NCBI GenBank assembly: GCA_951406725.2
Contig: OX597814.1
Coordinates: 46,376,001 to 46,440,000, forward strand
DNA: 64,000 bases
DNA from: Octopus vulgaris
Taxonomy: Eukaryota
Reading direction: 5' to 3'
The translations under genes were made by a program, and so were the position numbers. The notes below the pieces were generated by a model, which saw only the letters and a program-made list of their open reading frames with translations, made no database searches and was not told the DNA's origin. Below, piece by piece: positions 49,673 through 51,024 of the stretch. Numbering within the stretch: position 1 is the first letter of the stretch; every line of letters begins with the position of its first letter.

Positions 49673-51024
49673 ACTCTTTTTACTCTTTTACTTGTTTCAG
49701 CCATCCGGCTGAGGCCATGCTGGGGCACCGCCCTTGTTGCTACCCTCTCTAAGTCCAGTTTGCCGTGGCTGGCCACTGATCTAAGAGAGAGTTTGTAGCT
49801 GCTGCCCTTAGGTTACCTTCGTACCTTGCAGTGGGTTCATCTGGGATCCCGGAAAGCAGCTTGTCTAGATGTTTTTTGAAAATGTCCACATCCGCATCAT
49901 GTAGATCTCTTAGTTTTCTTGGCAGTTTGTTGAAAAGCTGAGGGCCCCTGAACCCCAGGCTATTACAGTATCTGCTCCTTACCCTGGATGTGGAAGACGG
50001 GACCTTTGGCACCACACAGTGACGTCCTGTACGGGGATTGGAACAGCTCTCAATTCCAAAATTTGGTGCTAGTCCCTCCAGGATTTTCCATATGTATATC
50101 ACTGCATATCTCTCTCGTCTTCGTTCCAAGGAGTACAAATTGAGTTCCCTAAGCCTCTCCCAATAGTTCTTTTCTTTCATGGTGGAAATCCTCTTGGTGA
50201 AATGTCTTTGGATTGTCTCAAGCTCTGTGGTTAGTTTGACACTATGCGGTGACCACAGTTGGGAGCAGTAGTCCAGGCGGCTTAGGACAAATGTCCTCCA
50301 TAGTGTCAACATGGTCTCGCAGTCTCTTGTCCGGAATGTCCTCAGGATCCAGCCAGTGAGTCGTCTGCACATTGTCGCCACCTTCGCGATGTGTGAAGAA
50401 AAAGATGCATCGTCACTCATGTCTATCCCCAGGTCCCGTATTGATTTCGATACTGGGATTTCGATCCCTCCTGGACCAGTATAGTTGTGTTGTAATGTAT
50501 ATGTGTTTACAGCTTGATATTGTAAGGCTTGAAATTTACCAGCATTAAATTGCATGTTGTTGTCTTCAGCCCATTTGTATATGGCATCCAGATCTTGTTG
50601 TAAAAGGTCAGCATCAGCTGGGTTTTTGATTGCCTGTGCTACCTTTGTGTCATCAGCATAGCTAGTGAGGGATGTTGTTTGTGCTACCAAGGGCATGTCA
50701 GAGAGCGCCACCAAAAACAGCAAGGGTCCCAAGACTGTGCCCTGTGGCACCCCGCTTGCTATTGGTGTCTTTCCCGAGAGGGCTCCATTGGCTGCAACCA
50801 TCTGGCTTCTGTCCTTCAGGAAGTCATGTATCCACTCACCTACTTTTCCTGTTATGCCGAGTCTGAGTAATTTGTGACATATCACTCCGTGGTCGACTTT
50901 GTCAAAGGCCTTCGCAAATATATATATAGTGGTCGACTTTTCAAAGGCCTTCGAATCGCAATATATGTGTGACGTCAGGGAGACTGGCCTGTAGTTTTTG
51001 GCCTCTGCTCTACTCCCTCCTTTG
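49673..51024 (-). mobile_element. CR1/L2-group LINE, 5'-truncated, intact 3' end (copy B)
   Basis: [43 protein letters not shown]; stop near 49749; 3' UTR with a (TAAAAGAG)n tail joined to (TA)n. Confidence 0.93.

What the first reader, a model, noticed from the sequence alone, without database searches (positions are those of the whole stretch)
49673..49732. LINE/SINE partnership: the tRNA-CORE SINE tail is the 3' UTR of the (TA)n LINE
Seen: LINE copy B ends GGCGGTGCCCCAGCATGGCCTCAGCCGGATGGCTGAAACAAGTAAAAGAGT, a short distance after its stop codon. The SINE at 38419-38469 ends GGCGGTGCTCCAGCATGGCCACAGTCAAATGACTGAAACAAGTAAAAGAGT, and the SINE copies at 4867, 22274 and 63635 end the same way. 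LINE B and SINE 63635 both join (TA)n with the same ...AGAGTATATA junction. Known: SINEs borrow the 3' ends of partner 'stringent' LINEs (e.g. MIR/L2, UnaSINE1/UnaL2). Inference: this LINE lineage mobilises the dominant SINE and passes on its target preference.
Basis: partly seen in the sequence, partly recalled or inferred. Interest (0 to 1): 0.75.

Follow-up and report, generated by a model that had tools for sequence, protein, structure and literature searches.

The report
Octopod SINE shares LINE hairpin tail
In what is likely an octopus genome, an abundant short jumping repeat ends in the same or a related 50-base tail, predicted to fold into two hairpins, as three families of longer enzyme-coding repeats, so it likely borrows their copying enzyme; this is a new example of a well-known arrangement.

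Summary
LINE copy B ends, 16 nt after its stop codon, in a 51-nt tail matching four SINE copies at 39-45 of 51 bases. Two other LINE families in the window (59% and 43% protein identity to B) carry a related tail 22 and 17 nt after their own stops. Contigs from three studies join B's ORF to the tail with no mismatch. The tail is predicted to form two hairpins; all six B-versus-SINE differences fall in loops, the linker or one compensatory pair. The tail therefore belongs to the LINE lineage (CR1 group, likely octopod), and the SINE most likely took it and is copied by that lineage's enzyme, as in eel UnaL2/UnaSINE1. Family B need not be the donor, because family F's tail is closer to the SINE. 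Inherited (TA)n targeting is unsupported: 2 of 4 SINEs have no TA flank, the region is 83% TA anyway, and the assembly looks damaged near the arrays. I found no octopus SINE/LINE pair in the papers searched. New member of a known kind.

The parts
49682..49732 (-). Shared 51-nt 3' tail of LINE B: predicted hairpin 1 (49732-49713), predicted hairpin 2 (49711-49698), GAAAC and first terminal repeat unit
49673..49689 (-). Terminal tandem repeat (AAAAGAGT)n of LINE B, running into (TA)n
49749..50918 (-). LINE B ORF2 3' part, 389 aa without stop, reverse transcriptase (PF00078, E 1.2e-16), stop TAG at 49751-49749
50919..51024 (-). 5' end of LINE B in the window; 45 letters at 50919-50963 stand where contigs of three studies have 186; ends at a TA array
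38140..38481 (+). SINE copy S38; tail 38419-38469; 34-nt TA run at its 5' side, A-rich 3' end
4867..5266 (-). SINE copy S5, full length; box A-like, box B-like and CCTTGGG motifs; internal (TA)n(TG)n; no TA flank
22276..22676 (+). SINE copy S22, most decayed tail (39/51 to B); no TA flank
63637..64000 (-). SINE copy S63, cut by the window end; 3' end joins a TA array as LINE B does
59520..60994 (+). LINE F, decayed RT fragment (59% aa to B); tail 60943-60993, about 22 nt after the stop, closer to the SINE tail (41/51 to S38) than to B (36/51)
51664..56063 (+). LINE D, about 4.4 kb, broken by stops and frameshifts: Myb/SANT-like 5' ORF, APE endonuclease, RT (43% aa to B); longer related twin-hairpin tail 55983-56031, then (TATCAAAG)n
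42228..42283 (-). Orphan tail fragment with both hairpins and an (AATC)n end, inside TA arrays; parent element unknown
47976..48842 (-). LINE A, RT fragment (69% aa to B, 88% to full-length P0003); 3' part broken up by TA runs, no tail found
58512..59400 (-). LINE E, rearranged RT fragments of the same lineage; no 3' end present
48843..49673 (.). Perfect (TA)n array of about 830 nt between LINE B's tail and LINE A

Best explanation
The last 50-odd bases of this SINE are the 3' end of a CR1-group LINE lineage, and the SINE RNA is likely copied into the genome by that lineage's reverse transcriptase, which would recognise the predicted twin hairpin. Shown: the shared sequence, its place just after the ORF2 stop in three LINE families, and the conserved pairing pattern. 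Inferred steps: (1) an ancestral SINE with a Pol III head acquired the tail from a LINE of the A/B/F lineage, probably by template switching; (2) the SINE is transcribed from its box A/B promoter; (3) the LINE's endonuclease-RT binds the hairpins, nicks DNA and primes synthesis, helped by 1-3 bases of pairing between the (AAAAGAGT)n end and the target, which would explain the identical GAGT-ATAT junction whenever either element lands in (TA)n. The claim is for the lineage. Which family drives the SINE now is open: B shares the terminal repeat and appears young, F shares more tail letters.
For: Tail identity 39-45/51 to four SINEs, none expected by chance. Homology stops at the base of hairpin 1; nothing further 5' aligns. 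A related tail follows the ORF2 stop at 16, about 22 and 17 nt in B, F and D, which are 59% and 43% identical in protein. All 7 tails folded give two adjacent hairpins, z -0.9 to -3.9; in S63 the predicted second hairpin uses other pairs. 91.7% of 96 cells pair, against 23-45% with partners slid; column 35/44 is U-A in 5 and C-G in 3 of 8 sequences. Of 6 B-versus-SINE differences, 4 are unpaired and 2 form that compensatory pair. Contigs from studies P1, P2 and P3 match 49678-50918 with 0 differences, ORF to tail, and one extends to about 4.6 kb of element. Relatives at 69% encode full endonuclease plus RT. The same arrangement is documented for bivalve CORE/V SINEs with CR1 (PMC4824008; PMC11481361) and was tested in eel (PMC3747384).
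Against: No mobilisation assay and no whole genome, so no copy counts or age profiles; n is 4 SINEs and 3 tailed LINEs. The structure was derived from these same sequences and they are related, so the shuffle counts (4/500 for covariation, 109/500 for pairs changed on both sides) are weak. LINE A has no tail. Many contigs carrying the tail end in (TAAAAGA)n and have a different upstream context, so other SINE variants may use other partners. The tRNA origin of the head was not confirmed. The study contigs may come from the same locus as copy B, in which case they confirm the join but are not a second insertion.
Confidence: 0.8

Rival explanations
1. The tail came from this lineage, but family B is a cousin, not the donor or present driver; an F-like or unseen family is the partner.
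For: F has the SINE majority letter at 4 of 6 diagnostic sites and one SINE copy's letter at the other two; F is 41/51 to S38 but 36/51 to B. Contigs show tail-bearing elements with another terminal repeat.
Against: B is still closer overall to three SINEs (42-45/51) than the decayed F copy (39-41/51), and S5, S38 and S63 share B's AAAAGAGT unit. Only one old F copy was seen.
Confidence: 0.4
2. The lineage targets (TA)n microsatellites and passes that preference to the SINE.
For: 5 of 6 lineage pieces end within 12 nt of a TA array and all 6 lie in the TA-rich right 25 kb; B and S63 share the junction; S38 has a 5' TA run.
Against: S5 and S22 are 158 nt and 1616 nt from the nearest array. Only 1 of 4 SINEs lies in the TA-rich part against 6 of 6 LINE pieces (Fisher p 0.033, small and clustered sample). 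Non-element DNA there is 83% TA, and an unrelated (GAT)n-tailed family abuts TA in 2 of 2 copies there and 0 of 5 elsewhere.
Confidence: 0.2
3. The TA context of these LINE copies is partly an assembly artefact, and copy B is the same locus as the 4.6-kb element seen in the study contigs.
For: In LINE A, TA runs replace LINE sequence of similar length while the pieces on either side stay in register with P0003. B has 45 letters where three studies have 186, yet is identical elsewhere. Contig X1 runs 1066 nt past the tail, close to the roughly 1075 nt expected for LINE A through its tail.
Against: X1 has 3149 nt more element 5' of 51025, where the window has about 630 nt of TA and then LINE D. 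The 1066-nt flank was not seen, so the length match may be coincidence.
Confidence: 0.4
4. A SINE 3' fragment happened to insert or recombine behind the LINE ORF; there is no partnership.
For: Tail-matching contigs are far more abundant than LINE-body contigs (summed depth 11,100-22,300 against 37-135), so SINE fragments are common. An orphan tail fragment exists at 42.2 kb.
Against: It would have to happen three times, 16-22 nt behind the stop, in three families, each time cut at the base of hairpin 1, with paired changes accumulating. D's tail has a longer stem than any SINE tail.
Confidence: 0.04
5. The tail is a relic and the SINE is now moved by another LINE clade, such as the abundant RTE elements.
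For: RTE-BovB is greatly expanded in cephalopods (PMC10294476), and squid Ceph-SINEs carry RTE parts (PMC5786205).
Against: The SINE's extreme 3' end is still the lineage's hairpins and terminal repeat; the lineage has an intact-looking young member.
Confidence: 0.1

Closest known systems
UnaSINE1/UnaL2 of eel (stringent SINE/LINE pair; PMC3747384)
   Same: SINE and LINE share a short 3' tail with a stem-loop followed by a short tandem repeat; listed as a tRNA-derived CORE-SINE.
   Different: Eel pair was tested by assay and uses an L2 LINE ending in TGTAA repeats; here two predicted hairpins, (AAAAGAGT)n, a CR1-group RT, and no assay.
BivaCORE-SINE1 and BivaV-SINE2 with oyster CR1-14_CGi (PMC4824008); bivalve pairs of PMC11481361
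   Same: Mollusc SINE tails matching a CR1 3' end with compensatory stem changes; shared stretches of 35-61 bp at 72-95% identity, like the 51-60 nt at 76-88% here; several LINE partners per SINE group.
   Different: By eye the bivalve tails in the supplement do not resemble this tail in sequence; different host class and LINE lineage.
Octopus OR1/OR2/OK SINEs (Ohshima and Okada 1994) and the tRNA-Core class of octopus repeat libraries (PMC8967140)
   Same: Likely host, size about 400 nt, CCTTGGG motif after a box B-like motif; tRNA-Core is a main octopus SINE class.
   Different: I could not see the OR1/OR2/OK sequences (the name OK is recalled), so identity with any of them is untested; no partner LINE is named in the passages read.
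Ceph-SINEs of squid and cuttlefish (PMC5786205)
   Same: Cephalopod SINEs with a partial CORE including CCTTGGG.
   Different: Their LINE-derived parts are RTE; this tail sits behind a CR1-group ORF2.
Recently active CR1 families of Octopus vulgaris (PMC13282606)
   Same: 13 CR1 families with 787 young near-full-length insertions are reported, so young octopus CR1 elements are known.
   Different: No SINE partner or 3' structure is described in the two of three parts read; whether family B is among them was not testable.

Membership tests
Stringent-type SINE/LINE pair | SINE 3' end homologous to the LINE's extreme 3' end, after ORF2 | tested here: met
   39-45/51 identity; 16 nt after B's stop; related tails after F and D
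Stringent-type SINE/LINE pair | Conserved stem-loop with compensatory changes | tested here: met
   Predicted twin hairpin; 91.7% of cells paired; 2 of 12 pairs change on both sides; small related sample
Stringent-type SINE/LINE pair | Shared short terminal tandem repeat | tested here: met
   AAAAGAGT in B and 3 of 4 SINEs; other variants end otherwise
Stringent-type SINE/LINE pair | LINE protein mobilises the SINE in a tail-dependent way | not testable with these tools
   Needs a retrotransposition assay
Stringent-type SINE/LINE pair | Overlapping activity periods of SINE and LINE | not testable with these tools
   No whole genome held
CR1 group of non-LTR retrotransposons | ORF2 with APE endonuclease then RT | tested here: met
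   RT in B; PF14529/PF03372 plus PF00078 in relatives P0002-P0004 at 68-69% and in D; B's own endonuclease part is not in the window
CR1 group of non-LTR retrotransposons | RT falls in a named clade (CR1, CR1-Zenon, L2, Crack) | tested here: inconclusive
   No named reference set. Quick unrooted tree: A, B, F and P0002-P0005 form a 100% group inside a 99% group with D; two loci taken as bird CR1 from a recalled terminal repeat lie outside at 32-33% identity
tRNA-derived SINE | Head with Pol III box A and B, tRNA-like | tested here: inconclusive
   Box B-like in 2 of 4 copies at 1 mismatch, box A-like at the expected place in S5 and weakly in S38; consensus boxes recalled; no credible ARAGORN or Rfam tRNA hit
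CORE-SINE | About 45-65 nt CORE domain after the head | tested here: inconclusive
   CCTTGGG (named as conserved in PMC5786205) exact in 1 of 4 copies and at 1 mismatch in 3, about 22 nt after box B; the full domain was not aligned to a reference
Microsatellite-targeting retrotransposons | Insertions concentrated in one microsatellite beyond background | tested here: inconclusive
   LINE pieces 5 of 6 abut TA but background is 83%; SINE 2 of 4 have no TA flank

The most novel reading that the evidence does not exclude
An octopod-specific CR1-group lineage, with a full-length transcribed and A-to-I edited member, still drives one of the most abundant octopus SINEs; several of its families read the same twin-hairpin code, the SINE has moved from an F-type to a B-type partner, and the LINEs (not the SINE) home to (TA)n arrays.
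Probability: 0.2. Interest if true: 0.6.

Novelty: new member of a known kind. Interest (0 to 1): 0.33.

Why it matters
SINEs are about 12% of the Octopus vulgaris genome (PMC13282606) and tRNA-Core is a main class (PMC8967140), but the papers read name no partner LINE for them. This gives a concrete candidate, a 50-nt RNA element to mutate, and a roughly 4.6-kb element present unchanged in three studies that could be used in an assay. Work on octopus brain LINEs has centred on RTE (PMC9115989); this points to a CR1-group lineage as a possible engine of the SINE expansion. The mechanism itself is textbook.

Tried and rejected
No whole genome was held, so all counts are from the 64-kb window. 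A tail pattern found 0 matches in viral and in prokaryote genome contigs; no relatives of the RT in viral contigs. Of 160 RT-related loci from metagenomes and prokaryote assemblies (likely animal DNA in them), 52 reached the ORF2 C-terminus and 0 of 52 had the GGYYGAAAC motif downstream; several had almost no downstream DNA. A covariance model of the tail, run on 26 of the 160 loci, gave at best 11.2 bits, E 0.32, so the tail sequence was not found outside this lineage; 6 of the 7 closest loci with downstream DNA do end in short AAAGT/AAGGT-type repeats. In the window the model found only the 8 sequences it was built from. ARAGORN, also with relaxed thresholds, and Rfam gave no credible tRNA for the head. 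Rfam microRNA hits are TA-repeat noise. The careful tree did not finish; the quick tree used 48 of 153 eligible loci, picked by hand, 16 proteins and 4 window copies, with E left out. Run X17 (small share) covered only pieces and was not used. Target-site duplications were looked for by eye and none was convincing. Earlier scan findings: nothing in three look-ups. The 2015 octopus genome paper was not held. ORF1 typing of D from PMC4120745 failed: no mention of Myb or SANT.

Full report
Observation. The 51 nt at 49732-49682 (- strand) follow an uninterrupted 389-aa RT frame (PF00078) by 16 nt. They match the ends of four copies of a roughly 400-nt repeat at 45, 44, 42 and 39 of 51 bases. The 21-nt end occurs 5 times in the window and never in 100 shuffles. 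BLAST homology between LINE B and the SINEs is 55-62 nt long and stops at the start of the tail.

Host and element type. No genome was held. The nearest named relatives of B's RT are Argonauta hians proteins at 61-62%, and unnamed relatives at 68-69% carry an APE endonuclease plus RT. An octopod host is therefore an inference. In a quick tree (68 rows, midpoint root, hand-picked loci) window copies A, B, F and proteins P0002-P0005 form one 100% group; copy D lies deeper in a 99% group of 30 rows. Two loci that I take as bird CR1 from a recalled terminal repeat lie outside it. I call the lineage CR1-group and cannot name the clade.

The tail belongs to the LINE. Three LINE families in the window keep a 3' end. 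B, F (59% aa to B) and D (43%) each have GGTGC...CATGGCC...GAAAC-type sequence 16, about 22 and 17 nt after the stop. A has no tail and E has no 3' end. All 7 tails folded give two adjacent hairpins, with z from -0.9 to -3.9 and a different second hairpin predicted in S63. On the 8-sequence alignment 91.7% of 96 cells pair, against 23-45% when partners are slid, and 2 of 12 pairs change on both sides. The sample is small and related and the structure came from it, so this is support, not proof. The six sites where B departs from the SINE majority are four unpaired positions and one U-A to C-G pair. A stray SINE fragment would not be expected to do this, nor to land three times just behind a stop codon.

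Independent sequence data. Sixteen runs from five studies hold 99% of B's sampled words. In the 3 of those 16 that I laid, from three studies, contigs match 49678-50918 with no difference, running from ORF into tail; one contig of 5704 nt adds 3149 nt on the 5' side, so the element is about 4.6 kb. The runs are only guessed to be RNA. Run X4 alone shows 16 T>C changes within 100 nt (50424-50523) in low-depth contigs, which are A>G on the LINE's sense strand, the pattern of A-to-I hyper-editing; no DNA run of the same animal was available to confirm it. Summed contig depth over the tail is 11,100-22,300 against 37-135 in the adjacent LINE body, and many tail contigs continue 5' into other sequence and end in (TAAAAGA)n, which fits an abundant SINE with more than one variant; depth here is not a copy number.

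Which family is the partner. F's tail has the SINE majority letter at 4 of the 6 diagnostic sites and is 41/51 to S38 but 36/51 to B. B shares the terminal repeat with 3 of 4 SINEs and is closer overall. The data support the lineage and do not pick the family.

Target preference. TA arrays are 1.1% of non-element DNA left of 39 kb and 83% right of it. All 6 LINE-lineage pieces lie on the right, 5 within 12 nt of an array; only 1 of 4 SINEs does (Fisher p 0.033, clustered sample). S5 and S22 are 158 and 1616 nt from the nearest array; S38 has a 34-nt run at its 5' end. An unrelated (GAT)n-tailed family abuts TA in 2 of 2 copies on the right and 0 of 5 on the left. The shared GAGT-ATAT junction is what short 3' pairing with the target would give; 3' overlaps of one to several bases are reported for CR1, L2 and RTE (PMC6007223, passages). 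Inherited targeting is not supported. A LINE-only preference stays possible.

Assembly caution. In LINE A's 3' part, TA runs replace LINE sequence while the pieces between them stay in register with P0003. In B, 45 letters stand where three studies have 186. The 5704-nt contig continues 1066 nt past the tail, near the 1008 nt of coding sequence plus tail expected for LINE A. It may be this very locus with a short spacer; I could not read that flank. This does not touch the shared tail, but it weakens arguments from TA flanks and means the contigs may not be a second insertion.

The SINE head. A box B-like motif is present in 2 of 4 copies and CCTTGGG in 1 exactly and 3 at one mismatch (box consensus recalled, CCTTGGG from PMC5786205). 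ARAGORN and Rfam gave no credible tRNA match. The tRNA-CORE label is plausible and unconfirmed.

Mechanism. Shown: shared tail, its position, pairing pattern. Inferred from known stringent pairs (PMC3747384, passages): Pol III transcription of the SINE, binding of the hairpins by the lineage's ORF2 protein, target-primed reverse transcription from the terminal repeat. Confidence 0.8 at lineage level.

What is known. CR1 and L2 partners with compensatory stem changes are described for bivalve SINEs (PMC4824008, passages and supplement parts 1 and 3 of 4; PMC4758252, passages; PMC11481361, passages and supplement list; its FASTA supplement could not be read). Cephalopod Ceph-SINEs carry RTE parts (PMC5786205, parts 1-3 of 5). 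Octopus papers list tRNA-Core SINEs as a main class (PMC8967140, passages), young CR1 families (PMC13282606, parts 1-2 of 3) and an expressed RTE (PMC9115989, passages), with no partner named in what I read. The 2013 review of pairs has no octopus or mollusc entry. Searches listed no paper on an octopus SINE/LINE pair, and none on a TA-targeting CR1. I did not see Ohshima and Okada 1994 or 2005, the 2015 octopus genome paper, Repbase or Dfam, any of which may already hold this pair. Also read as passages without bearing on the pair: PMC10294476, PMC3531059, PMC4120745.

Verdict. A real, well-supported SINE/LINE tail partnership of the ordinary kind, probably not yet described for octopus. The target-preference claim should be dropped until tested genome-wide. 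New member of a known kind; interest 0.33.

Noticed in passing
window 50424-50523: Run X4 alone shows 16 T>C changes in low-depth contigs, A>G on the LINE sense strand, as in A-to-I hyper-editing of the LINE transcript. Not checked against DNA.
   Followed up: partly
window 47868-47976 and 50919-50963: TA runs or short duplicated filler replace LINE sequence in register, suggesting assembly damage beside the large TA arrays.
   Followed up: partly
window 51817-52023: The 5' ORF of LINE D matches a Myb/SANT-like DNA-binding domain (PF13837, E 9.8e-6, just under the curated cut-off); a paper on ORF1 types in this group does not mention such a domain.
   Followed up: partly
window 42228-42283: An isolated twin-hairpin tail ending in (AATC)n sits inside TA arrays; it implies a further family or SINE with the same structure and another terminal repeat.
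   Followed up: partly
window 15658-15778: A degenerate 5S rRNA-like copy above Rfam's gathering score (53.6 bits), overlapping a repeated stretch also at 17573-17724; possibly a 5S-derived repeat.
   Followed up: no
window 8150-8337, 16873-17396, 22809-23121, 32609-32859, 38776-38926, 43553-43806, 56461-56935: A second repeat family with internal 62-66-nt tandem units and a (GAT)n end, seven copies; used only as a control. An RT-like frame at 16249-16698 is also found at 23313-23822.
   Followed up: partly
window 39165-47936: About 8 kb of imperfect (TA)n with G almost only on the + strand (GC skew near 1.0).
   Followed up: no
SINE copies, e.g. window 38289-38320: The SINE carries an internal (TA)n(TG)n microsatellite, so it could itself seed TA arrays.
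   Followed up: no
loci L081-L160: CR1-like RT sequences occur in many prokaryote genome assemblies (369 stretches), likely animal DNA contaminating those bins.
   Followed up: no
window 12515-13243 and 17781-18231: A 91% identical pair of about 450 nt, next to a 122-aa frame with no Pfam match; possibly an LTR-type remnant.
   Followed up: no
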